Shown: piece after piece, positions 20,019 to 40,897 of the stretch
Layout of the letters: the number at the start of each line of letters is the position of its first letter
Position numbering within the stretch: the stretch's first letter is position 1
Origin: a virus
Direction: 5' to 3' (one strand)
IMG/VR virus record: IMGVR_UViG_3300009156_000012
DNA length: 43,329 nt
Notes under the pieces: model-generated
Told to the model about the DNA's origin: nothing
The model's database searches: none
Seen by the model: the letters and a program-made list of their open reading frames with translations, nothing else
Made by a program: the position numbers and the translations under genes

Positions 20019-20153
20019 TCACCAATCATCTGGAACGAACAGCGTCGGGAAAATATTGCGCGTGAACCAAGCCAACGCAATAACACCGGCAATTCCGATC
20101 GTTCCTCCGATCGCCATCGACACCAGCATAATGATCATATCGCGCGCACTCAT
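20019..20153 (-). CDS. 44-aa membrane mini-protein
   Basis: Hand translation gives MSARDMIIMLVSMAIGGTIGIAGVIALAWFTRNIFPTLFVPDDW. ATGA overlap with the portal stop. Confidence 0.5.
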   Translation of the reverse strand: MSARDMIIMLVSMAIGGTIGIAGVIALAWFTRNIFPTLFVPDDW

Positions 20154-22540
20154 TGCGCCGGTCCCTTCGGCATCATCATCTGTCTCTCCTTCAGCTGCGA
20201 GGACTGCGCGAACTGCTGGTCCTTCTGGCGCGAGGCCTGATTGAACTGCGCCTGCTTCTGCTGGCGGCCGAGCGCGCTGTCCTGCGCCTTCATCGCCATG
20301 CCCTGACGCACGGCAGCGTTCTTGTCCATCTGGCCGCGCTGCTGGATCTGCGCCTTCTGCGTGTCGATCACGAAGTCGCGCTGCGACTTATCTGCATCCT
20401 GCGCGGCCTTCTCGCGATCGCGCTGCATCTGCGCGGCGATCTGCGCCATCTTGGCCCGACGCTCGCGCTCGGCGCCTTGGAATTCGAGCATCGCAACTTC
20501 CTTCTCGTTCTGCACCTTGGTCTGCTCGACGCGCATGCGCGACATGATCTCGGTCATCTGCAGATTGCGGTCCTTGTCGTTCTCCTGCGCGGCGTGCTGC
20601 ATCTTCATCTGCTCGATCTGCAGCTTGGTCTGCGGGTCTTCGCCCATCTTCTGCTGCTGGCCGCCCTGCGGCAGCTGGCCGGACGCTGCGAGCTGGCCGA
20701 GCTGGTCGACCATCTCGTCGATCGCACCGTCGAGCTGGCGACCCGCGCGATAGGGTGCGACCGCGAACTTGAGCACCTCGCCGCCGAACTTCGCGGTCTG
20801 CGGCATGGTCGTGATCATCACGCCAAGCTGCTGGATCAGGGTCGAGAGCACGGTGACGAATTCGCCGCGCTGCTCTTTCTCCTGCTGCTCGTCGATCATG
20901 ATCGTGCTGTCAGTCTCGATGTCGAGCACGAACGAGCGCGTGCGATTGTCGCGCAGGAACGCCAGCACGTCCTCGACCGTTGCCTTCTCGGACAGCTTCT
21001 GCACCTCCTGCTGCGCCTGCTGCATCATCTGCTGCGCCTGCTGCATCATCTGCGGATTAGCCTGCAGCTGCTGCATCATCTGCGGGTTCGCGCTGAGCTG
21101 CTGCGTCTGCTGCTGCACCTGCTGCGTGATCTGCTGGATCTGCTGCTGGATCTCCATCTTGCGCGGCAGCTGCATCTGCGCCATCGCAAGGATCGTCTCA
21201 TCGTCGAACTTCTCGGTGATGATCTCGACCGAGATCTGCACACAGTCCTTGGCAATGCGTGCCATCTCGCCCTGCTTGTCGCGGATGCGCACGGCACCGG
21301 ACTGCATCTTCATCTTCTGCGCGCCGAGCGTCTCCTGCGGATCAGTCGCACCACGCATGATGTCGGACAGGCCGACGATCTGGTAGATGTCCTGAATGAT
21401 CTCCTTGCGCAGCGCGACCAGCGAATTGACGGTGTTGGCGATCTCCTCGATCGGCAGCCAGACGATCACTTCCTTGCTGCCGCCGAACGCCGCCCAATTG
21501 TTGATCGGCACGAGAATGCGCCCGGCCGACTTCATCTTGATGGCCTTCTCGACCGCGTCGGCGATCTCGGTGCCGCCAGAGGGATAGAAGCCCTTCACCT
21601 CGATCGCGTCGGCGAGCGCGTGAATGCGCCCGGTGAGCGCGTTCAGTTCCTCCAGCTGGTCGCGATAATACTCGACGTCGGGGATCGGGATCAGCGAGCC
21701 GGGCTGCACCGTCGAATAGGCCGGTTGCGGACAGGGGAAGTAGCCCTGCAGGTCGAGATGCGGCTCGGCATAGTCGAGCAGCACTTCCGATCCCTCGCTC
21801 ACCCACGCGACAAGGCCGAGCGTGCGGTGCCACACTTCCCAGATCTTGGCGCGCTCGCGATCGTCGGTGCCGCCGACGTCCTTGCTGTCGCGCTGCACCT
21901 TGTAGTCGAGCTTGTCGTAGGCATCCTTGGAATATTTTTTGAAGCGCTTCTTCGCCTCGCGCCGCGTCAGGTAGCTCGCGGCGGCAACCCATTCGACCTC
22001 GTACCAGTTGCGGCAGATCGCGTGCAGGAAGTCGCGCCGGTCCTTGTGCTCGATGCAGACCTTCTCGGGCTTGCCGTTCCTGCCCTTCTCGTGACGGCAC
22101 CAGAGCACGCCACGCCCGTGCAGCGTCAGGCTGTCGCGCGTCTGCTTCAGCGCCGGATGCACGTAGGCGAGATCGAACGCGACGGTGGCGCAACGCTCGG
22201 CCATCTCGCTCGCGGTCTGCGGGACCGGCCTGCGATCCTTGAACTTCGGCACCACGACCGGGATCGGCGGGCGCGCATAGATCACCGGGGCAAGCACCTG
22301 AATGTTCGACCAGAACATCTGGAATTGCCGGTCGCGGTTGGCGGTGCGCAGCCGTTCGAGATTGCCGTAGAGCTTGTCAATGTTGTCGCAGGCATCATTC
22401 CACTCCTCGAAGGCGGTCTCGCTCTCGCGGATCAGCTCAAGCCACGTGGCGGCGTGCTTCGGCTCGGTGAAGACGTTGACTTCATCGCTCAGGCGACCGC
22501 GCGGTTCGGCTGCCTTGCCGGGAGGGCTTTCACTTGCCAT
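20150..22540 (-). CDS. Portal protein with long Q/K/E-rich C-terminal extension (796 aa)
   Basis: Largest head gene downstream of TerL. The N-terminal ~500 aa are portal-like (FWSNIQVLAPVIYARPPIPVVVP). The C-terminal ~300 aa are low-complexity coiled coil. Confidence 0.75.
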   Translation of the reverse strand: MASESPPGKAAEPRGRLSDEVNVFTEPKHAATWLELIRESETAFEEWNDACDNIDKLYGNLERLRTANRDRQFQMFWSNIQVLAPVIYARPPIPVVVPKFKDRRPVPQTASEMAERCATVAFDLAYVHPALKQTRDSLTLHGRGVLWCRHEKGRNGKPEKVCIEHKDRRDFLHAICRNWYEVEWVAAASYLTRREAKKRFKKYSKDAYDKLDYKVQRDSKDVGGTDDRERAKIWEVWHRTLGLVAWVSEGSEVLLDYAEPHLDLQGYFPCPQPAYSTVQPGSLIPIPDVEYYRDQLEELNALTGRIHALADAIEVKGFYPSGGTEIADAVEKAIKMKSAGRILVPINNWAAFGGSKEVIVWLPIEEIANTVNSLVALRKEIIQDIYQIVGLSDIMRGATDPQETLGAQKMKMQSGAVRIRDKQGEMARIAKDCVQISVEIITEKFDDETILAMAQMQLPRKMEIQQQIQQITQQVQQQTQQLSANPQMMQQLQANPQMMQQAQQMMQQAQQEVQKLSEKATVEDVLAFLRDNRTRSFVLDIETDSTIMIDEQQEKEQRGEFVTVLSTLIQQLGVMITTMPQTAKFGGEVLKFAVAPYRAGRQLDGAIDEMVDQLGQLAASGQLPQGGQQQKMGEDPQTKLQIEQMKMQHAAQENDKDRNLQMTEIMSRMRVEQTKVQNEKEVAMLEFQGAERERRAKMAQIAAQMQRDREKAAQDADKSQRDFVIDTQKAQIQQRGQMDKNAAVRQGMAMKAQDSALGRQQKQAQFNQASRQKDQQFAQSSQLKERQMMMPKGPAQ

Positions 22541-23801: not shown

Positions 23802-24112
23802 GCATGACCCTCGATATTGTCGTCGTTTTCCAGAAGCGCCTTGCGGATCTCGTCATCGACCACGAACGTGTTGGCCATGTCTTGCGCCATCGTATCGAGA
23901 TGCGCGGCGATCGTGCGCAGGTTGTCGGCACACTTGATGCCGGTGATGGTGTTGAGCCTGACGGTGTCATCGGCAGACGGACGCGCGACAATGAGAACGA
24001 ACTCGAACTTCGGATCACCGAAGATGCCGGTGAGCACGCCATGAATGCCATTGGCCAAGATCGACAGGCGCGCATCAGGATCAGTGGGCGCTTGGGGGTT
24101 CTCAACGTTCAT
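23798..24112 (-). CDS. Hypothetical protein (104 aa)
   Basis: ATGA overlap with the TerL stop. Plausible composition. Confidence 0.6.
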   Translation of the reverse strand: MNVENPQAPTDPDARLSILANGIHGVLTGIFGDPKFEFVLIVARPSADDTVRLNTITGIKCADNLRTIAAHLDTMAQDMANTFVVDDEIRKALLENDDNIEGHA

Positions 24113-25497
24113 AGCTCGATCCTCCCCGGGCGACGGGGGTTCGGCTCATCAGGAGGCGGGATGAACCATCCAGTCGGCCGACGTTCCTGCACCCTTACCA
24201 CCGGAAGCAGCTTCCACGCCAGCGATCCATAGCGGAAGGCATCGGCATAGTGCGTCGTCCAGTTGCGCTTTTCCTCCTGCTTGAAGGCCTTTAGCTCCTC
24301 ATCCCACGTGCGACAATACTGTTCGAGCGCCGCTACACCGATTTCCTCGCAGCGCGGGTGAAAGATCGAGAGCGGCAGCGTGCGGCGCGCGGCCTCGATG
24401 CCGTCGAGCTTGCTCATGTTCGGCACGAGGATCGGATGCAGACCGTGCTCGATCATGCTCTCGACGCGCGTGCGGCCAGATCCCCATTCGAGCACCTTGG
24501 CATCGTGCGGCACGTAGTCGTTGCCGTCCTTCCAGCCGTGCAGTGCGCGCTTCTGCTCGATCACACCGGCATAATGCTCGACGCCCGCCGTCATCGCGCC
24601 ATAGACATCGAGCCAGAGGATCTGCGCGCCGCGCATCTGGAAGAACCAGATCGCAGTGTCGTCGCGCACGCCGATGTCCCATGCGCGATGCACCGGCAGC
24701 TCGGGATCGTGCTCGACGTCGATGATGCGTTTCTCCTTGCGCACCTCCATCATTTCGAGCGCGAAGTAGGCGCCAAGGATCGCGGCGCTAAAGTTGCAAT
24801 TGTATTCCTGCTCGAACTGCGCCTGACCAACGTCGCGACCGAACAGCGCGATGTACTCGGCGAGCGCCTCGTCGAGCTGCGCCTGCGAGAGCGCTGCGGT
24901 GTCGCGCGCGGTGAGCAGCGAGGTGAACCAGTGCGGGCTCTTCATCGCCATGTCGAACATGGTCTTTGCGTGGTTGCGTCCGCGCGGCGTCGTGATGAAG
25001 AGCGCGTAGCCGTTGTTCTCTTCGAGGATGGGACGGTGATAGCCCCACGCACCGGGATGCGAGAGCGCCCACTCGCTGTACGTGATGCCCGCAACGCCCG
25101 AGCCGACAGTCGCATCGTATCGATCGCTGCCGATCACCTGCCACGTCGAGCCGTTGTGAAAGCGGATGAACATCTCATTGTCATTGATGTTGGCGCGCAG
25201 CTCGGGCGGGAACGCTTCATCAATGCGCCGCTTGCCGGTGTGCGAGTTGACCGCAGTCCATATGGCTTTTCGGCCCTGCTCATACTCGGGCAGGCAGTGC
25301 CAATAATTGCCGACGCGATCATGCGCGGAGCACGCGGCGAAGTGCAGCGCGACGTCATCCTTGCCTGCACGACGATGCCACACCGCCATCGCGCGCTTGC
25401 CGCCATCGATGAGGTGATAAAACAGCGCTTCCTGATACGGACGCGGTCGCCAGTTATTTGGAAGACGGATCGTCATGGCCATTGCCGTTGAGCGCAT
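24109..25497 (-). CDS. terL: Terminase large subunit
   Basis: Walker-A-like WHRRAGKDD. C-terminal RNaseH-like nuclease motif AWDIGVRDDTAIWFF. Adjacent TerS-like gene. Start ambiguous (25497, 25482 or 25476). Confidence 0.85.
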   Translation of the reverse strand: MRSTAMAMTIRLPNNWRPRPYQEALFYHLIDGGKRAMAVWHRRAGKDDVALHFAACSAHDRVGNYWHCLPEYEQGRKAIWTAVNSHTGKRRIDEAFPPELRANINDNEMFIRFHNGSTWQVIGSDRYDATVGSGVAGITYSEWALSHPGAWGYHRPILEENNGYALFITTPRGRNHAKTMFDMAMKSPHWFTSLLTARDTAALSQAQLDEALAEYIALFGRDVGQAQFEQEYNCNFSAAILGAYFALEMMEVRKEKRIIDVEHDPELPVHRAWDIGVRDDTAIWFFQMRGAQILWLDVYGAMTAGVEHYAGVIEQKRALHGWKDGNDYVPHDAKVLEWGSGRTRVESMIEHGLHPILVPNMSKLDGIEAARRTLPLSIFHPRCEEIGVAALEQYCRTWDEELKAFKQEEKRNWTTHYADAFRYGSLAWKLLPVVRVQERRPTGWFIPPPDEPNPRRPGRIEL

Positions 25498-25834
25498 GAC
25501 CGTTCGGCGTCACATCGATCGTCAACGGCTGCGACTGCACTGGCAACGGCTCGAAGCGGCGCACGATCTCGACGACAAGCTTGTTGGCTTGCACATCGAT
25601 CTGCAGCGGAATGATTTTCGAGAGCGCAGGCACGAACACCTGCGGATGCGAGAGTGCGACGGACTTCAAATAATTATGAAGTCCGTCGTCGCCTCCACCA
25701 CCTGCGCTGTTCGCCGCGCGCAGGAACGCCTCCTTCAGCAGGAGAGTAGGCATCGTAGGGCCGGGTGGCCTGCCCTTTGGGTTGCGAACTTCACCCTTCT
25801 TGATCGACGTGCGGTTTGCCTTGCCCACGTGCAA
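25454..25834 (-). CDS. terS: Terminase small subunit candidate (126 aa)
   Basis: N-terminal KKGEVRNPKGRPPG motif, common in small terminases. Lies directly upstream of TerL. The start is non-ATG (TTG 25834 or GTG 25828). Confidence 0.55.
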   Translation of the reverse strand: MHVGKANRTSIKKGEVRNPKGRPPGPTMPTLLLKEAFLRAANSAGGGGDDGLHNYLKSVALSHPQVFVPALSKIIPLQIDVQANKLVVEIVRRFEPLPVQSQPLTIDVTPNGHALNGNGHDDPSSK

Positions 25835-26288
25835 TCTCGTGCTTTTTCTGATCTGGCGCTCTTACCACGTCGGCGAGCCCGCGCCACCACACATCGTGAT
25901 CGAACGCGAGGGCGCGCGTGCAGAGTGTGAGCGAAACGAGCTGGAAGCGCTGCACGCGCAGGCTCTCGCGACTGCAGTCGTCGAGCACCCAGATCCGCCA
26001 GCCGCCATAGAGCGGGACGCCAAAAACAAAGCGCGCCCGGCCACCCGCACGGGCAAATGCGTCATGCCAAGCAATCTGCACGCTACGGATGTGACGGGGG
26101 TAAAGCCAGTCCCCGGTGACCTCTGCAAGCTTCACTTCAACCGGGAGGAGCAACTTCGCAGATTGCACCAAAACGAATAAATCGGGGCATCCGGCCGTGC
26201 CTCCGCGCGCCGTCTCCACCGGGAAAACGAACCCCGGGGGAGAGCTAAGTTGTTGGACGATATAGCGTTTCAGGGCATTCTCGTTCAT
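25791..26288 (-). CDS. VRR-NUC / PD-(D/E)xK nuclease (165 aa)
   Basis: GCPDLFVLVQSAKLLLPVEVK core motif. ATG at 26288 is preceded by GAGGAGG. The track extension MTFLTFLTFL is a translation of the repeat array. Confidence 0.7.
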   Translation of the reverse strand: MNENALKRYIVQQLSSPPGFVFPVETARGGTAGCPDLFVLVQSAKLLLPVEVKLAEVTGDWLYPRHIRSVQIAWHDAFARAGGRARFVFGVPLYGGWRIWVLDDCSRESLRVQRFQLVSLTLCTRALAFDHDVWWRGLADVVRAPDQKKHEIARGQGKPHVDQEG

Positions 26289-26305
26289 CGGAGCCTCCTC
26301 GGGCA

Positions 26306-26332
26306 GAAAGGTCAGGAAGGTCAGAAAGGTCA
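26306..26332. repeat. Three tandem 9-mers, GAAAGGTCA / GGAAGGTCA / GAAAGGTCA
   Basis: Read directly. They are the inverted complement of the 26406-26440 array. Confidence 0.9.
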
Positions 26333-26342
26333 CCCGTTCCTA

Positions 26343-26358
26343 CTCTCTCTCTCTCTCT
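26343..26358. repeat. (CT)8 dinucleotide microsatellite
   Basis: Read directly. Confidence 0.95.
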
Positions 26359-26365
26359 TCCCCTT

Positions 26366-26386
26366 CATCATCATCATCATCATCAT
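26366..26386. repeat. (CAT)7 trinucleotide microsatellite
   Basis: Read directly. It reads (ATG)7 on the transcribed minus strand. Confidence 0.95.
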
Positions 26387-26405
26387 TTCTCAAGTAAGAG
26401 GAGAC

Positions 26406-26440
26406 TGACCTTTCTGACCTTTCTGACCTTTTGACCTTTT
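26406..26440. repeat. Four tandem copies of TGACCTTT(C/T) spaced 9, 9 and 8 nt
   Basis: Read directly. Inverted relative to 26306-26332. Confidence 0.9.
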
Positions 26441-26443
26441 CAC

Positions 26444-27067
26444 TCAACTCCGCTCGCTCGGCATCAAAAGCCGCACACCATGCTCGGGACAGGTCAGCCG
26501 CCCGGCCGCCATCTGATCAAGCCGCACCTTGGCGACGAAGCCGCACTCCGGGCAGGCGACGTTGGTCATCTTGGGCGTCTTCTGCACCCGGAAGTCGACC
26601 GCCCGGCCATGGGTGTAGCGCCCCGCTGGAAGGGGTCCCAGTCGCGCCAGCGTGGCCGCCCAGAGGCGTTTGAACTCATCCCCTTCCGTTGTGGCCGTCA
26701 TCTTGCCGCGCAGCCCTGCGGCCGTCGCAAGCAGCCGGAACTCGCGCCCGTGCTTCACCTCGTGCGGCAGTGCGGCATGGCAAAGCTCATGCACGAGGAT
26801 CCCGGCCACGCGCACCGGGTCCGTCTCGGCCGACGTCACCCAGATCTCGCGCCCCTTGTCCTCGGTCACGTCGCCGGTCCAGCACAGGCCGATGGCGCGC
26901 ATCTTGCGGTGCGGCGGGCAGATCGCGGCGCGCAGGTTCCCCGGCAGGGGTGACCCGAGCGCGGCGAACGTGCCGCGCGCGTCGGCAATGAACTCGTTCA
27001 GCCACTGCTCGCGCGTGAGCTGGCCAGCTTGCGTCTTCTGCGTCTTGACAAGTGCGTTTTTCATCAT
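26444..27067 (-). CDS. SprT-like zinc metalloprotease with C-terminal zinc ribbon (207 aa)
   Basis: HELCHAALPHE (HExxH) plus CPECG...CPEHG. ATG-ATG at 27067 is preceded by GGAGAA. The upstream part of the track ORF is Arg/Gly-rich out-of-frame-like sequence. Confidence 0.7.
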   Translation of the reverse strand: MMKNALVKTQKTQAGQLTREQWLNEFIADARGTFAALGSPLPGNLRAAICPPHRKMRAIGLCWTGDVTEDKGREIWVTSAETDPVRVAGILVHELCHAALPHEVKHGREFRLLATAAGLRGKMTATTEGDEFKRLWAATLARLGPLPAGRYTHGRAVDFRVQKTPKMTNVACPECGFVAKVRLDQMAAGRLTCPEHGVRLLMPSERS

Positions 27068-27113
27068 GGTTCTCCGTTGGTTCCTGATTTGATGCCGTGA
27101 ACACTCATTTTCT

Positions 27114-27150
27114 GGACGGGCGGCAAATATCCGGTATTTGCCGCCCGTCC
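27114..27150 (-). terminator. Perfect 16-bp stem, 5-nt loop hairpin after the helicase gene
   Basis: GGACGGGCGGCAAATA-tccgg-TATTTGCCGCCCGTCC. T-run on the plus side only (TTTTCT upstream), A-run on the minus side. Confidence 0.5.
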
Positions 27151-27156
27151 CGCGCC

Positions 27157-28704
27157 CTAGCGCACGAACACCAGCGTGCTCATGGCCCGGGTGATCGCCA
27201 CGTAGGCGAGGTTGCGCTCCTGCAGCTGCTGCCACGGCAGCCGTGCCGCCTTGGACGGGCAGCGCGCCGCATGCTCCAGCAGCAGCACGCGCTGCCACTC
27301 GCGCCCCTTCGAGCGGTGGTAGGTCGCCAGCACGACCACGTTCGTCCCGACGTCGTCGCCGAACAGGTTCTCGATGAACGCAACCACGTCCTCGACCGTT
27401 TGCCTGCCCTGCAGCTGCACCGCAGTGCAGATCTCGCGCAGCGTGGCGACCTTGTCGGCGACTTCCTGCGCCTTCTGCTCGCTGCCCTTGGCCAGCGCCT
27501 TCTGCGTCTCGCGCGCCTCGTAGTCCTCCAGCCGGACCAGCAGGTCCTCGATCAGCTCGACCTTCCAGCGCCGCGCCAGCTTGGCGAGCCCGGTGCCGAT
27601 CGCGCGCCCCTCGACCTTGCACGCCACGCCCTTGCGGATCAGCGCGTATGCGGTCGAGACCAGCGGAGCGGTGTTGCGGCAGAGGATGGCGTCGCCCGGC
27701 GCAAGATCGGCGGGCAGCTCCTCGACGCGCAGCACCTCGCCTTCCGGCGCTTCCGCCGCCGCCTCGTAGTCGGGCACGATCTGCTGCGCGAGAGCGACCA
27801 CCTGCTTCGGGCAGCGGAACGTGACGGTGAGCGGGAACACCTCCGCGCCGAGCGCCTCGACCATGTTCGCCATCGCGTTGGTGTCGGCGCCCGAGAAGCC
27901 GTAGATCGCCTGCCGGTCGTCGCCGATGATGTGCAGGTTGCCGCCCGGCGCGACGAACTTGCGCACCAGCGCGAAGCGCGCGCGCGAGATGTCCTGCGCC
28001 TCGTCGACGAAGATCTCGTCGCGGGTGAACTTCACGCGGATGTTCTTGATCAGCGGGAACAGGATCATGTCGTCGAAGTCGACGATGTGCGTCATCTGCA
28101 GCGAGAGCTTGTAGAGCACCTGCGCGGCGGAAATCACCTGCTCCATCGCATCGGTCTCGTCGAGCCCGTTGACGTCATAGTGGTCAGCGAGATCCGCCCA
28201 CACCTGCACCGAGCCGATCGGCAGGTCGTCGAAGAAGCCGACGCCAGCCTGCTTGCCGAGCGAGACCAGCTGCATCACCTGCGCGCCATACTGGCGCAGC
28301 ACGTAGACCGGGATGGCGTCGCCGTAGGGCGAGGGGCGCCCGTCGGCGTCGGCGCCGTCGATGATCGTGCGCACGATGTCGCGCACCTTGTTGGCGTCGA
28401 TCTTCGGCGAGCGGAAGGCGAAGCGCACGAGGCCCCACCCCATCGCGTGCGCGGTCTGCGCGCCAACCGTCTTCCAGTCGTCGTGGCCGCGCCGCTTCAG
28501 CTTGCCCGCGACCTCGTCGGCGATCGCCTTGTTGTAGGCGCACACCGTGACGCTGCGCTCGGGATGCGCGGCGCGCAGCGCGTCGACCGCGCTCAGGATG
28601 GTGGTGGTCTTGCCCGTGCCTGCGCGCGCCTGCAGGGCCTTGTTGCCGTCGCAGCGCGCGACCGCGTCGATGAAGGCCTGCTGCTGGGTGGTGGGTGCGT
28701 TCAT
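27157..28704 (-). CDS. UvrD/Rep/PcrA-type superfamily-1 DNA helicase (515 aa)
   Basis: Motifs ARAGTGKTTT (I), IFVDEAQD (II), GDDRQAIYGFSGAD (III), ATYHRSKGREW (V), AYVAITRA (VI). Confidence 0.85.
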   Translation of the reverse strand: MNAPTTQQQAFIDAVARCDGNKALQARAGTGKTTTILSAVDALRAAHPERSVTVCAYNKAIADEVAGKLKRRGHDDWKTVGAQTAHAMGWGLVRFAFRSPKIDANKVRDIVRTIIDGADADGRPSPYGDAIPVYVLRQYGAQVMQLVSLGKQAGVGFFDDLPIGSVQVWADLADHYDVNGLDETDAMEQVISAAQVLYKLSLQMTHIVDFDDMILFPLIKNIRVKFTRDEIFVDEAQDISRARFALVRKFVAPGGNLHIIGDDRQAIYGFSGADTNAMANMVEALGAEVFPLTVTFRCPKQVVALAQQIVPDYEAAAEAPEGEVLRVEELPADLAPGDAILCRNTAPLVSTAYALIRKGVACKVEGRAIGTGLAKLARRWKVELIEDLLVRLEDYEARETQKALAKGSEQKAQEVADKVATLREICTAVQLQGRQTVEDVVAFIENLFGDDVGTNVVVLATYHRSKGREWQRVLLLEHAARCPSKAARLPWQQLQERNLAYVAITRAMSTLVFVR

Positions 28705-30386: not shown

Positions 30387-30562
30387 TTTGTTTCCTCCTT
30401 GCTGATGACTTCGACGTCGCGGATGAACATCGTCTGGCGCAACGTGCGCGCCAGCGCCTCTGCATCCTCGCTCGTGATGCAATAGGCGTGGCGCCGTTTC
30501 CCATGCGGGTGCTCGTGCAGGGTCACGTTGAAATCGGTCCATCGCACTTCGAACCTGCTCAT
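30383..30562 (-). CDS. 59-aa hypothetical protein
   Basis: Hand translation gives MSRFEVRWTDFNVTLHEHPHGKRRHAYCITSEDAEALARTLRQTMFIRDVEVISKEETK. Coupled at both ends (TGATG, ATGA). Below the track cutoff. Confidence 0.5.
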   Translation of the reverse strand: MSRFEVRWTDFNVTLHEHPHGKRRHAYCITSEDAEALARTLRQTMFIRDVEVISKEETK

Positions 30563-30834
30563 CAGATCACCACCTTCACGGTGGGCACCACCTTGGTGGT
30601 GGTGTGCGCGGCGATGAACTGTGGCGACAGCTTGGCGCGCACCGCCTTCATGTCGAGCGTGTTGCGCTCGGGCATGGTGATCTCGACGGCATAGAGCACG
30701 CCACGGTGGCGGCCTGCGCCGAGCGTGAGCACCTCCTCGCGCGCGAGCTTTTCCTCCGCTTCGAGATCCGCGATGCGGCTGCGCAGGACCGCGAGCTTGT
30801 CGATCGCGTTGATGGTCTTGGCCTGAATGTTCAT
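30562..30834 (-). CDS. Hypothetical protein (90 aa)
   Basis: Clean ORF with RBS GGAGAAC 6 nt upstream. Confidence 0.65.
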   Translation of the reverse strand: MNIQAKTINAIDKLAVLRSRIADLEAEEKLAREEVLTLGAGRHRGVLYAVEITMPERNTLDMKAVRAKLSPQFIAAHTTTKVVPTVKVVI

Positions 30835-30856: not shown

Positions 30857-30896
30857 GTTTCAGTCAGTTTCAGTCAGTTTCAGCTAGTTTCAGTGA
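30857..30896. repeat. 4 x 10-bp tandem array GTTTCAG(T/C)(C/T/G)A
   Basis: gtttcagtca gtttcagtca gtttcagcta gtttcagtga, read directly. Lies in the 55-nt gap between two genes, and the last unit overlaps the upstream stop codon. Confidence 0.9.
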
Positions 30897-31117
30897 TTGT
30901 CGGCGAAGGGCGTCTCTGCCCCGCGCCACACGCAGTTGGTCAGCTCCTCGCGCGCGCGGGTCCATGTCTCGACGACGTCGACCAGCATGCCGTCACGCAC
31001 CAGCTCGACTTCGACGTCCCAGCTGTTGCAGCAGGAAAAGTAGGTCGTGCTCGGAACGGCGACCATCTTCTGGCGCTTGCAGGTGGGGCAGGAGAGGGTG
31101 TGGTAGCGGGTGATCAT
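30890..31117 (-). CDS. Small Cys-rich hypothetical protein (75 aa)
   Basis: LSCPTCKRQ...FSCCNSW is a possible zinc site. RBS GGAGGA. Confidence 0.6.
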   Translation of the reverse strand: MITRYHTLSCPTCKRQKMVAVPSTTYFSCCNSWDVEVELVRDGMLVDVVETWTRAREELTNCVWRGAETPFADNH

Positions 31118-33078: not shown

Positions 33079-33116
33079 GGAAACCTCCGGGTTGCCGGGC
33101 TCAGCCGGTGTCAAGA

Positions 33117-33151
33117 GTTAAAACATGCATTAACAAGGAGTGCAAGGCCTT
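33117..33151 (-). promoter_or_regulatory. Class I sigma-70-like leftward early promoter candidate
   Basis: Minus strand reads AAGGCC-TTGCAC-N17-TTTAAC. Lies in the divergent intergenic region. Confidence 0.5.
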
Positions 33152-33156
33152 TTTTC

Positions 33157-33191
33157 AAGGCCTTTATTTTTCCGCTTGCAAATCATTTGAG
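33157..33191 (+). promoter_or_regulatory. Possible rightward early promoter, back-to-back with the leftward one
   Basis: Plus strand reads AAGGCC-TTTATT-N17-TTTGAG. Same spacing logic as class I but weaker hexamers. Confidence 0.3.
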
Positions 33192-33264
33192 CCGGGCGCA
33201 GCCTGAGTGTTCCGGACGACCATGCGAGCGTGCATGGCGCCGGTCACCGCCCAAGGAGGGCATC

Positions 33265-34987: not shown

Positions 34988-35521
34988 ATGAAACATCTCA
35001 TCTTCGACACCGAGACAACGGACCTGCTGGCCAGCAGCTCAATGTCGATCGAGCGCAAGCCGCACGTGATCGAGTTCGCCGCGATCCTGTGGAACGACCA
35101 GACCGGCGACGAGCAGGAGTTCGACTGGCTGTTCAATCCGGGCACCCCGATCAAGCCGAAGGCTGCGGAGGTGACGCGCATCACCGATGACATGGTGAAG
35201 GATGAGCCGTCCTTTTCCCACAGGGCGCCAGCGATCCGCGCGCTGCTCGTGCTCGCCGACGTCGTCGTAGCGCATAATCTGTTCTTCGACATGCATATGC
35301 TCGCGTGCGAGTTCAGGCGCGCCGACACGGCAGACGTCAAGTGGCCGAAGGGCATCTGCACGGTCGAGGCGACCGAGCACATTCTTGGGCGGCGCATGAA
35401 GCTCGCCGAGCTGCACCGCTACCTGTTCGCGGAGGACTTCCACGGCGCGCACCGCGCCATGGTGGACGTGCGCGCACTGCTGCGCTGCTATCGCGAGCTG
35501 ATCAAGAGGGGCGAGCTATGA
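34988..35521 (+). CDS. dnaQ: DnaQ-like DEDDh 3'-5' exonuclease (177 aa)
   Basis: Exo I FDTETTD, Exo II VVAHNLFFDMHML, Exo III HRAMVDVRAL. Confidence 0.85.
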   Translation: MKHLIFDTETTDLLASSSMSIERKPHVIEFAAILWNDQTGDEQEFDWLFNPGTPIKPKAAEVTRITDDMVKDEPSFSHRAPAIRALLVLADVVVAHNLFFDMHMLACEFRRADTADVKWPKGICTVEATEHILGRRMKLAELHRYLFAEDFHGAHRAMVDVRALLRCYRELIKRGEL

Positions 35522-35533
35522 TGGAGAACAGGA

Positions 35534-35898: not shown

Positions 35899-38690
35899 GC
35901 GCACGCATCCGCACCGGCTACTCGTTCCGCAAGGCGGCAGGCCACCTCACCGCCGTCGCTGCCGTGCTCAAGGAGCAGGGCCGCACGCACGCGCCGATTA
36001 CCGACACGGCATCCACCTATGGGTGGGTGCAGTGGGATCGCATCGTGCGTGCCTCCGGGATGAAACCCTGCTTCGGTGTCGAGCTGGCCGTCTCGCACGA
36101 CATCAAGGCGAAGCGGCCGACAGTTGACTACTGGACTTTCCTCGCGCGAGATGATCTGCGGCCACTGCACGAGATCATCGGCGTAGCAACCGAGCAGTTC
36201 CGCTATGAACCGCTGCTGACCGTCGAGCAGGCGACAAGTGCCGCGTCCGCTCTCAACGTCATCATGGGGCATCGGAGTGCGGTCGCGGACATCGAGCCGC
36301 GACCGCATCTCTGGTTCGGTGTCGGCCCGGCGATCAGCATCGGGCAGATCCGCCGCGTGCTCAAGACCGCGCACCGCTTCGTCGCCGTCAGTGACAACCG
36401 CTTCCCGCGCGAGGGCGAGCGTTCGCTCTACGAGCTTGCCTGCGGCAGGCGCAGCGACACGCAGAGCTATCCGCAGTGGATCCTGAGCGATGATGAGTGG
36501 CGCATCAACATTGCAAACCATCTCGAAGAATTCAGCGGTGTTGCCTTCAGCGAGATCGCGCTCGACAACCGCGATGAGATCCTCGAAGCGTCCACCGCAA
36601 CGTTGCAGCGTGCCGAGATGGCGCATCCGGATCGTCCTTATGGACTGCTCGAAATGTGCCAGCTGGGAGCGCAGCGGCTCGGTATCGATCTCGGCCGTCA
36701 GCCCTACGCAGCACGTCTGCGGCGCGAGCTGGAGCTGATCGTTGCCAAGAAGTTCGAGGACTACTTCTACATGGTCGCCGACATCGTCAACGTCGCGCGA
36801 TCGAGCATGATGGTCGGGCCTGCGCGCGGATCGTCGTGCGGCTCGCTGGTCTGCTACCTGCTCGGCATCACATCGGTCGATCCGATCCCGTTCGGCCTGC
36901 TGTTCGAGCGCTTCATCGACGTCAATCGCGCCGACTTGCCCGACATCGACATCGACTTTTCCGAGCAGCACCGCGAGGTCATCTTCCGCTATGTGCGCGA
37001 CAAGTACGGCGCGCACCGGGTGGCGCGGCTCGGCACCGTCAACCTGTTTCAGGCGCGCTCCGCGCTGAAGGCCGCAGCGCTCGCGCTCGACATTCCGCCA
37101 TGGAGCATCGCAAGTGTTGCCGATCAGGCGGAAGCCGTCGGCATCGAGCAGGCGCTCAAGGGTCACCTGCTCGCGCGCACCTATCCCGAGCTTGCGCTCG
37201 CTGCCAAGCTCGAAGGCCACCCGAGCCATGCTGGCCAGCATCCGGCAGGCATCGTGATCACGGCAGGCGCCGTCTCCGACGTCGTGGCGATCGATCGCCG
37301 TACCGGCGCGACGATGTGCGATTACCGCGATGCCGAAGCGCTCAACCTGCTCAAGATCGACATGCTCGGCCTCACCCAGCTCTCGGTGTTCGAGGATGCG
37401 CTAGAGCTGGCCAATCTCGATCCCAAGGCGCTCGGCCAGCTCAATCCCTACAACGACCAGAAGGCACTGCACGTCATCAACAGCAGGCGCTATGCGGGCA
37501 TCTTCCAGTTCAACGGGCAGGCCCAGCAGAACCTTGCCAACCAGATCACCATCACGTCGATCGACGACATCGTGGCACTGACCGCGCTTGCCCGGCCCGG
37601 CCCGCTCGACAGCGGCGAGGCGCAGCGCTGGGTGCGCATCAGGCTCAACAAGGAGGCGCCGAGCTACATTCAGGAGTTATTCGAACCGATCCTGAAGCCG
37701 ACGCTGGGCGTCGTGATCTATCAGGAACAGATCATGCAGATCTGTCGCGCTGTTGGCATGAGCTGGGAGGACGTATCGTCGATGCGGCGCCTGATCAGCA
37801 AGAGTGCTGGCCCGGAAGCGCTCGACGCACATCGTGTCGTGTTCATTGGCAATGGCCTGAAAGCTGGCCTTCATCAGCTTGCTCTGGAGAATATGTGGGA
37901 CGTGCTGCGCGCTTCCGGCGCCTACTCGTTCAACAAGTCCCACGCGGTCGCCTACGGCATCATCTCCTACTGGTGCTGCTGGCTGAAGGCACACTATCCG
38001 CTGGAGTTTGCCGCAGCGACCTTGTCGCACGCCAGCGACGACACGCAGATCAAGCTGCTGCGCGAGCTGGAACGCGAAGGCATCGGATACGTCCCGGCCG
38101 ACAAGAATGTGTCGATCGACAAGTGGACGGTGGGGAACGTGAACGGACAGCGCAAGCTGGTAGGTCCGCTCTCGAACATCATCGGCATTGGACCGAAGCA
38201 TCAGGCCGCGATATTGTCGGCGCGTTCGCGCCCGATGGAGAAGCTTCCCGATCGCATCGGCAAGCTGCTGGCCAGCCCGCGCACCAAGATCGACAACCTG
38301 TATCCGGTGCGTACCGAGATCAACCGGCTCATGCCGGATCCAAAGAAGCTCAACATCACTTCGCATCCGATCGAGATCTCGAAGGTTCAGACCAACGGTG
38401 AGAAGCAGCTCGTGCTGGTTTTCGGTCGCGTCGATGAGCTGCGCGAGAAGATCGTCGATGGCATTCATTCGCTCAACCTGTGGATCGAGGACGACAGCGA
38501 TCGCATCTTCGCCAAGGTCGGGCGCTACGACTTCGATCAAATCGGAAAAGAGATCATGCAGCATGGCGAGGGCTACTATGCCCTCAAGGGCACCGTGCCC
38601 GCAGGCTTCCGCATGATCTGGATCGAGGGATATCGTTTCATCGGGGCAGGTCATGGAAAACAAGCCGACAAAAATCCAGACGCTGAATGA
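35895..38690 (+). CDS. dnaE: DNA polymerase III alpha subunit (DnaE-type C-family replicase, 931 aa)
   Basis: GPARGSSCGSLVCYLLGITSVDPIPFGLLFERFIDVNRADLPDIDIDF closely parallels the E. coli DnaE palm motif. Also HPAGIVIT and LKIDMLGL. Start ATG 35895 forms ATGA with the upstream stop. Confidence 0.9.
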   Translation: MSARIRTGYSFRKAAGHLTAVAAVLKEQGRTHAPITDTASTYGWVQWDRIVRASGMKPCFGVELAVSHDIKAKRPTVDYWTFLARDDLRPLHEIIGVATEQFRYEPLLTVEQATSAASALNVIMGHRSAVADIEPRPHLWFGVGPAISIGQIRRVLKTAHRFVAVSDNRFPREGERSLYELACGRRSDTQSYPQWILSDDEWRINIANHLEEFSGVAFSEIALDNRDEILEASTATLQRAEMAHPDRPYGLLEMCQLGAQRLGIDLGRQPYAARLRRELELIVAKKFEDYFYMVADIVNVARSSMMVGPARGSSCGSLVCYLLGITSVDPIPFGLLFERFIDVNRADLPDIDIDFSEQHREVIFRYVRDKYGAHRVARLGTVNLFQARSALKAAALALDIPPWSIASVADQAEAVGIEQALKGHLLARTYPELALAAKLEGHPSHAGQHPAGIVITAGAVSDVVAIDRRTGATMCDYRDAEALNLLKIDMLGLTQLSVFEDALELANLDPKALGQLNPYNDQKALHVINSRRYAGIFQFNGQAQQNLANQITITSIDDIVALTALARPGPLDSGEAQRWVRIRLNKEAPSYIQELFEPILKPTLGVVIYQEQIMQICRAVGMSWEDVSSMRRLISKSAGPEALDAHRVVFIGNGLKAGLHQLALENMWDVLRASGAYSFNKSHAVAYGIISYWCCWLKAHYPLEFAAATLSHASDDTQIKLLRELEREGIGYVPADKNVSIDKWTVGNVNGQRKLVGPLSNIIGIGPKHQAAILSARSRPMEKLPDRIGKLLASPRTKIDNLYPVRTEINRLMPDPKKLNITSHPIEISKVQTNGEKQLVLVFGRVDELREKIVDGIHSLNLWIEDDSDRIFAKVGRYDFDQIGKEIMQHGEGYYALKGTVPAGFRMIWIEGYRFIGAGHGKQADKNPDAE

Positions 38691-40887
38691 CGTTCCCTCG
38701 ATCGCAGCCTATCTGGCGCGCATCAATGCAAGGCCGCGATCGATCCGCTCGGCGGTGGTCGAGGAAGTGCATGGGCGCTACTGGAAGGACCTGCACGTCA
38801 TCCGGTTTCACCCGGGCGACAAGAAGCACCCGGTCAATGCGCCGGAAGAGCTGGCCCCGACAGATGCCGAGCTGGAGGCGATCCTCAAGGATATCGACAT
38901 CTATCAATGGCCAGCCTCGAAGCTCTTGGGCAAGGTCTACGAGCTGCCGACGCAGCTGAAGAAGGTTGACCCGGAGAACCTGTTCGAATTTCGCAACCGG
39001 GAAGGGCAGCTGGTCATGCTGCAGCAGCGCACCGAAGAAACCGATCGTGGCAAGTATCGCCCGTGGACGCCGTTCGACGACTACCTGTGGCGGATGTGCG
39101 AGCCGGACGGGCAGCTGCCGATCTGGGGCATGGAGCATCTCGGCGAGCACACCACCGTGTTCATCCACGAGGGTGCCAAGGCGGCGCGCGCAATGCATCG
39201 TCTGGTCAACCCGACAAACCGCGCGGGACGCGACCAGCTCGCGCGTCATCCATGGGGGCTCGATCTGGTCAATGCCGCACACCTTGGATGGATCGGCGGT
39301 GCGCTCAATCCTGACCGCACCAACTGGGTGGAGCTGGCCAAGTGCGGCGTCAAGCAGGCCTTCATCGTCGCCGACAATGACGCGCCCGGCCTCACTGCGG
39401 TCCCGACGATCGCGCGCTACCTGCAGGGCGTCACGGTCTTTCTGGTCCGCTTCAACCAGCTGTTCCCGCCGTCATTCGACATGGCCGACGAATGGCCCGA
39501 GCAATTCTTCATCGAGAAGGATGGCGAGCGGATCTATCAGGGGCCGACGTTCAACGACCACCTGCGCCCGGCAACGTGGGCAACCGATCTGGTCAAGGTC
39601 GGCAAGAAGAACGTCGCCAAGCTGCGCGACGAATTCAAGAAGTCTTGGGGATGGGTTTCCGAAGTCGACCTGTATGTCTGCCTGCAGCGTCCGACGCTGC
39701 GCTTTCCCGACAAGGTGTTCGAGGGGCACGTCGCCGCGTTCAGCCATCACAACAGCAAGGTCGCCGAGCTGGTGAAGCGCGATCTGGTCTGCCACTTCGG
39801 CAGGATGGCGTATCGTCCGGACAGGACGGAATTCATCATCGGCCATTTCGGCGAAGCAGCGACCATCAACCTGTTCACGCCATCCGGCATCACGCCATTG
39901 CCCGGCGACGCCACGCCATGGATCGAGTTCCTGACCTACCTGATCCCCGACAAGGAAGAGCGCCGCGAGATGATGCGATGGGTTGCGACGCTGATCGCAC
40001 GCCCCGACATCCGCATGAGCTATGCGGTGCTGATGGTGAGCGAGACGCAGGGCGTCGGCAAGAACACGCTCGGCGAGAAGATCCTCGCCCCCCTCGTCGG
40101 CATGCACAACTGCTCGTTCCCCGACGAGCAGCAGGTCGTCGACAGTCAGTTCAATTCTTGGCTTGTCAACAAGCGCTTCGCCTTCATTGCCGAGATCTAC
40201 AGCGGCAGGTCGTGGAAAGCGACCAACAAGCTCAAGAGCCACATCACCGATCGCACCGTCCACGTCAACGAGAAGTACATCAAGCCGCACGACATCGACA
40301 ACTGGATCCACGTCATGGCCTGCAGCAACTCGCTGCGTGCGCTCAAGCTCGACGCAACCGATCGCAGGTGGTTCGTTCCGACACTGACCGAGACGCCATG
40401 GCCGCGCGAGAAGTGGATCGCGTTCAATGAGTGGATCGAGGGCAACGGGCTGCGCATCATCCTGCACTGGGCCAAGCAGTTCGGGGACTACGTCAAGACC
40501 GGCGAGCACGCGCCGATGACCGAGCGCAAGGGCGTCATGCAGCGCGAGAGCGAGAGCGATGCGATGCAGCTGCTGCGCAGCTGGTGCGAGGCGAACGAGG
40601 ATATCCCGATCACTGTCGTCGAGCGCGCGATGCGCGACTTTCTCGAACGCTCGTCATCCGAGCGCAGGATCTACGAGAGCAGCACCGAGCTGCGCAGGAT
40701 CATGGCCAGCCTTGGATGGGAGACGTTCAACGAGCGGCTCAGGATTGACGGACTGAAGCAGTGGGTCATCATGTCGCCACAGGTCAGCAAGGAGCTGGCC
40801 AGCCTTCCTCAAGACATTGTCGTGCATCGCAAGTTCGTCCGCGCGACGATCAAGTTGCCGGTGGACAGCAAACAGGCAATGCTGTAA
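38653..40887 (+). CDS. Bifunctional primase-helicase (Toprim primase + D5/P4-alpha-type SF3 helicase, 744 aa)
   Basis: Toprim-like IHEGAKAARA and FIVADNDAPG. Walker A SETQGVGKNTLGEK and Walker B-like FAFIAEI. Overlaps the dnaE end by 38 nt. Confidence 0.8.
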   Translation: MENKPTKIQTLNDVPSIAAYLARINARPRSIRSAVVEEVHGRYWKDLHVIRFHPGDKKHPVNAPEELAPTDAELEAILKDIDIYQWPASKLLGKVYELPTQLKKVDPENLFEFRNREGQLVMLQQRTEETDRGKYRPWTPFDDYLWRMCEPDGQLPIWGMEHLGEHTTVFIHEGAKAARAMHRLVNPTNRAGRDQLARHPWGLDLVNAAHLGWIGGALNPDRTNWVELAKCGVKQAFIVADNDAPGLTAVPTIARYLQGVTVFLVRFNQLFPPSFDMADEWPEQFFIEKDGERIYQGPTFNDHLRPATWATDLVKVGKKNVAKLRDEFKKSWGWVSEVDLYVCLQRPTLRFPDKVFEGHVAAFSHHNSKVAELVKRDLVCHFGRMAYRPDRTEFIIGHFGEAATINLFTPSGITPLPGDATPWIEFLTYLIPDKEERREMMRWVATLIARPDIRMSYAVLMVSETQGVGKNTLGEKILAPLVGMHNCSFPDEQQVVDSQFNSWLVNKRFAFIAEIYSGRSWKATNKLKSHITDRTVHVNEKYIKPHDIDNWIHVMACSNSLRALKLDATDRRWFVPTLTETPWPREKWIAFNEWIEGNGLRIILHWAKQFGDYVKTGEHAPMTERKGVMQRESESDAMQLLRSWCEANEDIPITVVERAMRDFLERSSSERRIYESSTELRRIMASLGWETFNERLRIDGLKQWVIMSPQVSKELASLPQDIVVHRKFVRATIKLPVDSKQAML

Positions 40888-40897
40888 GGCCTTTTCA

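What the first reader, a model, noticed from the sequence alone, without database searches (positions are those of the whole stretch)
26304..26443. Iteron-flanked double microsatellite at the early/late boundary
The 155-nt gap between the SprT-like gene (stop 26444) and the VRR-NUC/terminase late operon (start 26288) has an unusual layout. Three copies of GAAAGGTCA sit at 26306-26332. They are followed by (CT)8 at 26343-26358 and (CAT)7 at 26366-26386. Four copies of the inverse 9-mer TGACCTTT(C/T) sit at 26406-26440. The two arrays could pair as a ~22-bp stem around a ~70-nt loop, or could bind a protein as inverted iteron clusters. Clustered direct and inverted short iterons are how the P4 alpha primase-helicase recognises its ori, and this phage encodes a P4-alpha-like primase-helicase (38653-40887). 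T7-type genomes also carry short repeat arrays next to their physical ends, and the small terminase gene lies about 450 bp downstream. Two perfect microsatellites inside a phage regulatory region are slippage-prone and could vary promoter spacing. This is the strongest candidate for an ori, pac site or late switch element.
Basis: partly seen in the sequence, partly recalled or inferred. Interest (0 to 1): 0.8.

Follow-up and report, generated by a model that had tools for sequence, protein, structure and literature searches.

The report
Iteron-type phage replication origin
The repeat-filled gap between the early and late genes of this uncultivated soil phage is most likely its replication origin, built like the origins of staphylococcal pathogenicity islands, so it is a recognisable kind of element with a few unusual details.

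Summary
Window 26306-26440 holds 3 + 4 copies of a 9-mer (core AGGTCA) in opposite orientation. They flank a 73-nt spacer carrying (CT)8 and (CAT)7, in the lowest-GC stretch of the genome.

About 25 related phage contigs share this architecture: at least 2 short iterons on each side, pointing in opposite directions, around an AT-rich or low-complexity core. The iteron words differ between lineages.

In most relatives the element directly follows the stop codon of the replicative primase/helicase gene, whichever of five helicase families that is. In L205 and L222 that gene is a homologue of the window's own primase-helicase, and it is followed by element, then nuclease.

The window's primase-helicase model (pLDDT 92.7) matches the SaPI5 primase-helicase and ends in a winged-helix-like fold.

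Between close relatives all iteron copies switch together (GGTCA to GGGCA) and the spacer is flipped. The small terminase stays 92% identical across that change.

Best reading: a SaPI/PICI/P4-type iteron origin, displaced here from its initiator gene and linked to a PD-(D/E)xK nuclease gene. The pac-site, promoter-spacing and RNA-hairpin readings are not supported. Nothing has been tested experimentally.

The parts
26406..26440 (-). Left iteron set in coding orientation: 4 tandem copies of (A/G)AAAGGTCA, spaced 9, 9 and 8 nt.
26333..26405 (.). 73-nt spacer, the predicted unwinding region. It is relatively AT-rich and strand-asymmetric. It carries (CT)8 at 26343-26358 and (CAT)7 at 26365-26386 on the + strand, which read as (AG)8 and (ATG)7 on the coding strand.
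   Evidence: lowest GC in the genome. Searches show it inverted in relatives L219 and L220.
26306..26332 (-). Right iteron set: 3 tandem copies of TGACCTT(T/C)C on the coding strand, in the opposite orientation to the left set.
25791..26288 (-). PD-(D/E)xK (VRR-NUC-like) nuclease gene. Its true start is the ATG at 26288, after GAGGAGG. Among close relatives it is present or absent together with the element.
   Evidence: (phrog_93 endonuclease).
38653..40887 (+). Primase-helicase (DUF5906, SF3 helicase), the predicted trans-acting initiator. Its C-terminal winged-helix-like domain, about aa 636-707, corresponds to nt 40558-40773.
   Evidence: pLDDT 92.7; SaPI5 primase-helicase 7ola, E 8e-10.

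Best explanation
The element is the phage's origin of replication, of the type used by self-loading SF3 primase-helicase initiators (SaPI/PICI Rep, P4 alpha).

Inferred mechanism:
1. The winged-helix domain at the C-terminus of the primase-helicase (38653-40887) binds the AGGTCA iterons.
2. Two oligomers assemble on the two oppositely oriented sets.
3. The low-GC, purine/pyrimidine-asymmetric 73-nt spacer between them melts.
4. The enzyme's primase domain primes, and the phage DnaE-type polymerase extends.

What is shown here: the architecture, its uniqueness in the genome, its conservation with changing iteron words, its position directly 3' of helicase genes in relatives, its orientation-independence, and the fold of the candidate initiator.

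What is inferred: binding, melting and initiation.

In this lineage the origin sits about 12 kb from the initiator gene. It stays next to a PD-(D/E)xK nuclease gene, as it does in L205 and L222.
For: 1. Architecture. The element has 7 short iterons, at least 3 on each side in opposite orientation, around the lowest-GC segment of the genome. This matches published descriptions of SaPI and Gram-negative PICI origins (PMC9371898, read; PMC6092414).

2. Uniqueness. It is the top-scoring word cluster in the whole window.

3. Conservation. The same architecture, with different words, occurs in about 25 relatives.

4. Position after helicase genes. It lies directly after the stop codon of the replicative primase/helicase gene in lineages that use five different families:
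- VapE-like: L135, L149, L151, L167, L199
- AAA_25: L136, L140
- Prim-Pol + AAA_25: L178
- DUF5906: L187, L190
- DUF3987: L198
In L136, L140, L178 and L190 it is 2.5-4 kb away from TerS and TerL.

5. Link to the window's own proteins. L205/L206 and L222 carry primase-helicases 44-49% identical to the window's. Each is followed at once by an iteron/(AG)n element and then a homologue of the window's nuclease.

6. Initiator fold. The window's primase-helicase model has pLDDT 92.7 and ends in a helix-strand-helix-helix-hairpin (winged-helix) topology. Its helicase and C-terminal part match the NrS-1 helicase (E 3e-18), the SaPI5 primase-helicase 7ola (E 8e-10, about 410-450 aligned columns) and PriRep1 7pds.

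7. Orientation-independence. The spacer is reverse-complemented in L219 and L220 relative to the window and L217.

8. Concerted change. All copies read GGTCA in the window and GGGCA in L217, L235 and L220, while TerS stays 92% and TerL 96.7% identical between the window and L220.

9. Same-contig pairing. The window pairs winged-helix 'RRIMAS..NERLR' with GGTCA. Contig SRR26290488_60772 pairs 'RRTMAN..PERLN' with GGGCA. Positions 683, 686, 693 and 697 vary in all three near-identical alleles.
Against: - There is no experimental or read-depth evidence.
- In the window the element is 12 kb from the initiator gene and on the other transcription arm, unlike the canonical arrangement.
- L120, L212, L213 and L216 lack the element at this junction. 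Their contigs are too short to show whether an origin lies elsewhere.
- L129 and L130 differ by replacement of element plus nuclease as one block inside otherwise 89%-identical DNA. That would separate an origin from a distant initiator.
- Enrichment of substitutions in the winged helix is significant in only one of three allele pairs (P = 7e-4; the others 0.16-0.21).
- The comparison rests on only two same-contig initiator/iteron pairs among near-identical genomes.
- GC skew shows no inflection at this position.
Confidence: 0.6

Rival explanations
1. The element is the recognition, cleavage or operator site of the adjacent PD-(D/E)xK nuclease, making a self-contained 'nuclease plus site' cassette. 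For example, the nuclease might cut a cruciform extruded from the 26-bp inverted repeat, or repress its own gene through the iterons.
For: - Among close relatives, element and nuclease are present together (window, L121, L122/L208, L125, L127/L128, L129, L130, L217-L220, L235, L237) or absent together (L120, L212, L213/L216).
- They are exchanged as one block between L129 and L130.
- They are adjacent again in L205 and L222.
- Stand-alone viral VRR-Nuc proteins are Holliday-junction resolvases (abstract of PMC4103454, listed).
Against: - VapE-, AAA_25- and DUF3987-type relatives have the element without a nuclease gene next to it.
- In the four-taxon comparison the nuclease shows no residues tracking iterons. 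One informative column fits the iteron grouping, against 1 and 2 for the two other groupings.
- Several relatives have mostly direct iterons that cannot extrude a cruciform (L149, L167).
- Conserved gene order within a replication module explains the linkage more simply.
Confidence: 0.14
2. The element is a packaging signal: a pac or cos site, or repeat arrays flanking a terminal repeat, recognised by the small terminase encoded 450 bp downstream. The model would be P1 pac (4 + 3 hexamers) or the T7 SRL/SRR arrays.
For: - It lies about 470 bp upstream of the TerS gene.
- In VapE-type relatives it is 90-170 nt upstream of TerS. In L157 and L161 it stays next to TerS while VapE lies 1.6-2.6 kb away.
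- The 4 + 3 layout recalls P1 pac (my own recollection, not verified in the paper library).
Against: - TerS is 91.9% identical between the window and L220, with an almost identical N-terminal half, yet the iterons differ and the spacer is flipped. TerS alleles group window with L220, while iterons group window with L219.
- The two clades use unrelated TerS families but the same architecture.
- In L136, L140, L178, L190 and L173 the cluster is 2.5-4 kb from TerS and TerL.
- L120, with TerS 83% identical, has no element.
- The assembly overlap lies elsewhere, inside an ORF.
Confidence: 0.08
3. The element is a late-operon promoter or operator, possibly an invertible or slippage-tuned switch. It would control the nuclease, terminase and structural genes.
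For: - It sits at the replication/packaging boundary of a long co-directional gene array.
- A TATAG/TATATAG-like motif follows the polypurine tract in many relatives.
- The spacer is found in both orientations, as in invertible promoters.
Against: - No sigma-70-like site is present in 25500-27500.
- No recombinase or invertase was found among the 33 ORFs scanned.
- Both orientations occur as consensus sequences of related phages, so neither can be an obligate 'on' state.
- Microsatellite numbers are identical in L221, L237 and L238 from other samples.
- In many relatives the element is followed by non-late genes.
- The iterons occur nowhere else in clusters.
Confidence: 0.07
4. The element works as RNA. 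A 26-bp hairpin in the polycistronic transcript would act as an RNase III site, terminator or attenuator, or translational control of the nuclease gene.
For: The sense strand folds to -60.2 kcal/mol (z = -4.3) and the antisense strand to -58.0 kcal/mol (z = -6.1). The arms differ between relatives but stay complementary in many of them.
Against: - The arms are always built of tandem 7-9-mers, which a helix does not need.
- Extra unpaired copies exist (4 against 3 here).
- Sets in direct orientation occur in L149 and L167.
- Arm mismatches show no G-U bias: 6 on the sense strand, 10 on the antisense strand, 14 neither.
- The loop is inverted in relatives.
- No U-tract follows the hairpin.
- No Rfam family reaches its threshold.
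Confidence: 0.04

Closest known systems
SaPI and PICI replication origins (Rep / Pri-Rep self-loading SF3 helicases)
   Same: - Six to twelve short iterons, with an AT-rich region at the centre.
- At least two iterons on each side, pointing in opposite directions (PMC9371898; PMC6092414).
- The initiator is an SF3 helicase with a C-terminal winged helix, and the window's protein matches SaPI5 PriRep by fold.
- In relatives the element directly follows the helicase gene.
   Different: - It belongs to a phage with its own DnaE-type polymerase, not a satellite.
- In the window the element is 12 kb from the initiator gene.
- The repeat units are 8-9 nt, head to tail.
- The spacer carries (AG)n and (ATG)n microsatellites rather than plain AT-rich DNA.
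- It is linked to a PD-(D/E)xK nuclease gene.
pRN1 plasmid and Bordetella phage BIP-1 origin stem-loop (PMC4234260)
   Same: - A stem-loop of about 100 nt (21-nt stem, 58-nt loop) lies downstream of a primase + SF3 helicase + winged-helix replication gene.
- It still works when moved elsewhere on the replicon, which parallels the displaced position in the window.
- Its sequence is not conserved, but its structure is.
   Different: pRN1 has no iterons and no demonstrated specific binding by the replication protein. Its primase is of the AEP type. Here the conserved feature is the tandem iterons, not the stem.
Satellite phage P4 ori/crr with alpha protein
   Same: A primase-helicase binds short repeats, in direct and inverted orientation, through a C-terminal winged helix (as summarised in PMC4234260).
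   Different: P4 needs two separate cis elements, ori and crr (my own knowledge). The window has a single cluster. The iteron sequences are unrelated. No sequence match to P4 alpha was obtained.
Phage P1 pac site
   Same: Short repeats are arranged 4 + 3 around a central region of similar size (my own knowledge).
   Different: The P1 hexamers carry GATC and are read by PacA. Here there is no GATC, no covariation with TerS and no constant linkage to the terminase genes.

Membership tests
SaPI/PICI-type iteron origin | At least 2 short iterons on each side of a central AT-rich region, with the two sets pointing in opposite directions | tested here: met
   There are 4 + 3 copies in opposite orientation, with a 73-nt spacer in the lowest-GC window of the genome.
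SaPI/PICI-type iteron origin | 6-12 iterons in total | tested here: met
   The window has 7 copies. Relatives have 4-11.
SaPI/PICI-type iteron origin | Located immediately downstream of the rep (helicase) ORF | tested here: not met
   In the window the primase-helicase gene lies at 38653-40887, 12 kb away on the other strand, and is followed directly by another gene. The feature is met in relatives L135, L149, L151, L167, L199, L136, L140, L178, L187, L190, L198, L205 and L222.
SaPI/PICI-type iteron origin | The genome encodes an SF3 helicase initiator with a C-terminal winged-helix domain | tested here: met
   - The protein carries DUF5906.
- The AF2 model has pLDDT 92.7, with a helix-strand-helix-helix-hairpin topology at aa 636-707.
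- Foldseek hits are NrS-1 at 3e-18, SaPI5 PriRep 7ola at 8e-10 and PriRep1 7pds at 8e-8.
SaPI/PICI-type iteron origin | The initiator binds the iterons, melts the AT-rich region, and replication starts there | not testable with these tools
   The support is indirect only. Winged-helix alleles differ between the GGTCA genome and the GGGCA genome.
P4 ori/crr system | Two separated cis elements (ori and crr) carrying the same iterons | tested here: not met
   The window has one cluster only. The other exact 9-mers are 3 singletons.
Terminase pac/cos site | Specificity resides in TerS, so site and TerS co-vary and stay linked | tested here: not met
   The window and L220 share 92% identical TerS but have different iterons. 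The element lies far from TerS in L136, L140, L178 and L190.
Terminase pac/cos site | Physical genome ends or packaging-series start at the site | not testable with these tools
   Only assembled contigs are available. The window's 123-bp terminal overlap lies inside an ORF elsewhere.
Invertible promoter switch (inverton) | A promoter inside the invertible segment and a dedicated recombinase | tested here: not met
   No promoter-like site was found. No recombinase was found among the ORFs scanned. Inversion is seen only between lineages.
Structured RNA (Rfam families, RNase III site or terminator) | A helix kept by compensatory and G-U changes on one strand, or a match to a known family | tested here: not met
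   No Rfam family reaches its gathering score. Mismatches show no G-U bias. The helix is absent in L149 and L167.

The most novel reading that the evidence does not exclude
The origin and the adjacent PD-(D/E)xK (Holliday-junction-resolvase-like) nuclease would form one portable replication module. It would move between phages as a block. Its iteron specificity would be re-set by concerted change of all copies. Its core would flip by recombination between the inverted arrays. The nuclease would act on the origin itself, for example by cutting the extruded cruciform or the opened bubble, to switch from theta to rolling-circle or recombination-driven replication. The conserved (ATG)6-7/(AG)n tracts could serve as dense primase start sites.
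Probability: 0.12. Interest if true: 0.7.

Novelty: new member of a known kind. Interest (0 to 1): 0.42.

Why it matters
Replication origins are almost never annotated in uncultivated phages. This result gives three things.

- A concrete, testable origin for a widespread soil phage group with DnaE-type polymerases.
- A simple recognition rule for finding such origins elsewhere: opposed tandem iterons around a low-GC core, usually right after the primase/helicase stop codon.
- Natural allele pairs for studying how initiator and origin specificity co-evolve: GGTCA versus GGGCA iterons, with four variable winged-helix positions.

If the element does work as an origin, it would also provide a minimal replicon for engineering these phages.

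Tried and rejected
- **16-mer scan.** A scan of viral contigs for the exact 16-mer AAGGTCAGAAAGGTCA returned more than 119 unrelated loci, often with several in-frame copies. I took these for coding repeats without checking. The scan was uninformative.
- **Cultured phages.** megablast of the region against cultured phages found nothing. The nearest cultured relatives by portal or TerL are Rhizobium phage RHph_I3_18, Bradyrhizobium phage ppBjS10J-1 and the Brucella Tb/Pr group. RHph_I3_18 and ppBjS10J-1 show no comparable element upstream of their terminase genes; for Brucella phage Pr only the annotation was read.
- **Nuclease as a search query.** A pattern search of viral contigs with the nuclease found no relatives.
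- **Nuclease structure.** Prediction from 4 sequences gave pLDDT 40, so no fold search was run.
- **Promoter/terminator scan.** No promoter was found. The one terminator-like site lies outside the element.
- **RNA searches.** Rfam gave only sub-threshold miRNA-like hairpin matches. No tRNAs were found.
- **GC skew.** Uninformative.
- **P1 pac and P4 primer specificity.** I could not verify either in the paper library. They are marked as my own recollection.
- **Specificity determinant among neighbours.** I looked for one among the neighbouring proteins. The nuclease and TerS do not track iterons. Four SprT C-terminal columns do, which is probably linkage to the adjacent array.

Full report
**1. 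The observation**

The window is a 43.2-kb phage genome assembled as a circle. Bases 1-123 equal 43207-43329 and lie inside an ORF.

Genes around the finding run on the minus strand:
- UvrD-like helicase, 27157-28704
- SprT-like protein, stop at 26444
- a 155-nt gap
- a 165-aa PD-(D/E)xK nuclease, 25791-26288 (phrog_93 'endonuclease'; motif PD...EVK)
- a DUF5681-type small terminase, 25454-25834
- TerL, 24109-25497
- portal, 20150-22540

In coding orientation the gap reads: 4 x (A/G)AAAGGTCA, a 73-nt spacer with (ATG)7 and (AG)8, 3 x TGACCTT(T/C)C, GAGGAGG, ATG.

AAAGGTCA occurs 8 times against 0.53 expected, and no shuffle reaches that count. The two sets form a 26-nt inverted repeat that is 96% complementary. 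The element holds the lowest-GC 100-nt window of the genome, 0.42 against about 0.62. It is also the top-scoring word cluster in the genome.

**2. Relatives**

Cultured phages have nothing alike. IMG/VR holds 140 contigs with related TerL, of which 80 were retrieved.

Syntenic relatives all carry two opposed sets of 2-3 tandem 7-9-mers after the SprT-like gene, or in L127 after one small extra ORF that follows it. The sets flank a low-complexity core. These relatives are L121, L122/L208, L125, L127/L128, L129 and L130. The words differ between them: AAAGTCA, AGAGTTC, AAGCTCA/AAGATCA, AGGGTCA, AGGCTCA. The cores contain tracts such as (GAG)6, G10+(AG)6, (AG)20 or A9.

More distant relatives (TerL 60-68% identical) have the same design with other words. 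These include GTGACG, TGACGG, GGTGACA, TATCCA, CGTACC, GGCGCA, ACGAAA, AGGACC, CAGCAC, CAGTCA and GTTAGTGC. There are often 7-11 copies in more than two sets. In L149 and L167 the copies are mostly direct.

So the conserved feature is an array of short protein-sized sites around an easily melted core. It is not a particular sequence or a hairpin.

**3. What the element travels with**

In eleven distinct lineages the cluster begins within 0-100 nt of the stop codon of a large gene. Pfam identifies that gene as a replicative primase/helicase of five different families:
- VapE-like: L135, L149, L151, L167, L199
- AAA_25: L136, L140/L179
- Prim-Pol + AAA_25: L178
- DUF5906: L187, L190
- DUF3987: L198

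In L136, L140, L178 and L190 the terminase genes are 2.5-4 kb further on. So the constant neighbour is the helicase gene, not the packaging genes.

The link to the window comes from L205/L206 and L222. Their DUF5906 primase-helicases are 44-49% identical to the window's protein at 38653-40887. Each is followed at once by an iteron element, and then by a homologue of the window's nuclease with motifs GHPD...EFK and RPAQISWH. In L205 the element is TTTCCAC x4 opposite GTGGAAA x2, with a spacer containing TTTTAGAGAGAGAGAAAATT.

The window lineage has therefore kept the origin-nuclease pair in front of the terminase genes. Meanwhile the polymerase/primase-helicase block sits on the other arm.

**4. 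The candidate initiator**

The window's primase-helicase carries DUF5906 and matches the NrS-1 helicase by sequence.

With 84 homologues it folds at pLDDT 92.7. It ends in helix 636-647, strand 654-656, helices 657-667 and 677-686, and a beta-hairpin at 696-707. That is a winged-helix topology.

Foldseek ranks the NrS-1 C-terminal region first (3e-18). The SaPI5 primase-helicase 7ola follows at 8e-10 with 410-450 aligned columns, then PriRep1 bound to DNA, 7pds.

Published descriptions of SaPI origins read almost like a description of this element. They report 6-12 penta- or hexanucleotide iterons just downstream of rep, an AT-rich centre, and at least two iterons per side pointing in opposite directions, bound by the Rep C-terminal winged helix (PMC9371898). 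Gram-negative PICIs 'always' have two iteron sets flanking an AT-rich region (PMC6092414).

The pRN1 plasmid origin is a 21-nt-stem, 58-nt-loop structure downstream of a primase/SF3/winged-helix gene. It still works when displaced (PMC4234260).

**5. Very close relatives discriminate between the hypotheses**

These were found through nuclease, SprT and helicase homologues.

- **L221, L237 and L238** come from other samples. Their elements are identical to the window's, including (ATG)7 and (AG)8. So there is no sign of slippage-driven variation.
- **L217, L218 and L235** carry AAAGGGCA in all six copies, with the spacer in the window's orientation.
- **L219** keeps AAAGGTCA, but its spacer is reverse-complemented.
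- **L220** has AAAGGGCA and the flipped spacer.

Alignment confirms the flip. Flipped alignments score 35-42, against about -3 in the same orientation.

A core that functions in either orientation argues against a promoter, a 5'-UTR or a coding role. It fits a symmetric origin.

The window and L220 share 96.7% identical TerL and 91.9% identical TerS, yet differ in iterons and in spacer orientation. TerS alleles group window with L220, whereas iterons group window with L219.

The nuclease shows no residues that follow the iteron type.

The primase-helicase does differ between iteron types. On the window the winged helix reads ELRRIMASLGWETFNERLRIDG, with GGTCA iterons. On contig SRR26290488_60772 (loci L229 and L235) it reads ELRRTMANLGWETFPERLNIDG, with GGGCA iterons.

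A third allele, P0130, comes from the same sample as L220 and changes the same four positions: 683, 686, 693 and 697. These lie on the third helix and the wing.

The clustering of substitutions is statistically clear only for P0005 versus P0130: 5 of 19 differences fall within aa 677-707, P = 7e-4. For the other pairs P is 0.16-0.21. I treat this as suggestive only.

**6. Rivals**

- **RNA hairpin.** Both strands fold well. However, arm mismatches show no G-U bias (6, 10 and 14). The tandem build and the unpaired extra copy are unexplained by a helix. The helix is missing in some relatives. Rfam finds nothing.
- **Promoter or switch.** No sigma-70-like site is present. No recombinase was found among the 33 ORFs scanned. 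Both orientations occur as consensus sequences of related phages.
- **pac site.** See section 5. In addition, the element is absent from L120, whose TerS is 83% identical.
- **Nuclease site.** Close relatives have element and nuclease together or neither, and L129 and L130 exchange them as one block. This rival keeps some weight. Against it, VapE-type lineages have the element without the nuclease, and conserved gene order is the simpler explanation.

**7. Open points**

- The block exchange in L129/L130 would uncouple an origin from a distant initiator.
- Some relatives lack the element at this junction.
- (ATG)6-7 is retained in either orientation although the neighbouring nuclease is only 55-75% identical between these phages.
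- Bacterial-type primases start at defined trinucleotides (PMC2532735, from the abstract listed). The tracts might therefore be primase start sites. This is speculation.

**8. Verdict**

The element is most likely (about 0.6) an iteron-type replication origin served by the phage's SF3 primase-helicase. It is a new member of the SaPI/PICI/P4 kind.

Its unusual details are its displacement from the initiator gene, a microsatellite-bearing core that has flipped between lineages, concerted iteron switching, and linkage to a PD-(D/E)xK nuclease gene.

Binding, melting and initiation are inferred, not shown.

Noticed in passing
window 30857-30894: Four tandem 10-nt units (CTGAAACTGA on the minus strand) sit between the stop of gene 30890-31117 and the RBS/ATG of gene 30562-30834. 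This is a second, direct-only repeat array of unknown role.
   Followed up: partly
window 1-123 and 43207-43329: The two ends are identical over 123 bp, inside an ORF. This is an assembly overlap of a circular or permuted map, so contig ends say nothing about physical termini.
   Followed up: yes
window 26288-26333: The database gene call for the nuclease (P0001, 180 aa, GTG at 26333) reads through the right iteron set ('VTFLTFLTFLPEEAP'). Relatives start at the position equivalent to the ATG at 26288, after GAGGAGG.
   Followed up: yes
L132:4035-4176 (also L133): Eight TATCCAA words occur in both orientations around an AT-rich core, 0.8 kb upstream of TerL. They resemble DnaA boxes (TTATCCACA). 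This relative's origin may recruit host DnaA.
   Followed up: partly
L134:3300-3380, L150:3842-3900, L170:4297-4378, L182:3733-3791: Dense alternating GTNAC-type words lie in GC-normal, apparently coding DNA, 0.6-1.6 kb upstream of TerL. They may be a different kind of site embedded in a gene.
   Followed up: no
L129:3789-4498 versus L130:3458-4124: Two contigs from one metagenome are 89% identical on both sides, but the element plus nuclease gene is replaced as one block.
   Followed up: partly
L212:1700-1830, L213 and L216 (same junction): Relatives without the iteron element carry another inverted repeat (CGCTGGTGCGTT ... AAACGCACCAGCG) and a small Cys-rich ORF between SprT and TerS. L120 has no intergenic space there at all.
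   Followed up: partly
window 34988-42556: The replication arm encodes an RNase T/epsilon-like exonuclease, a DnaE-type Pol III alpha (35757-38690), the primase-helicase and an SNF2 helicase. Pam3 gp33/gp34-like genes lie upstream. No phage RNA polymerase was found, so 'T7-type' does not describe this genome.
   Followed up: yes
window 33115-33264: A divergent intergenic region separates the two transcription arms. It has low GC and a hairpin, AAGGCCTTTTTTCAAGGCCTT. It is the likely early promoter region.
   Followed up: no
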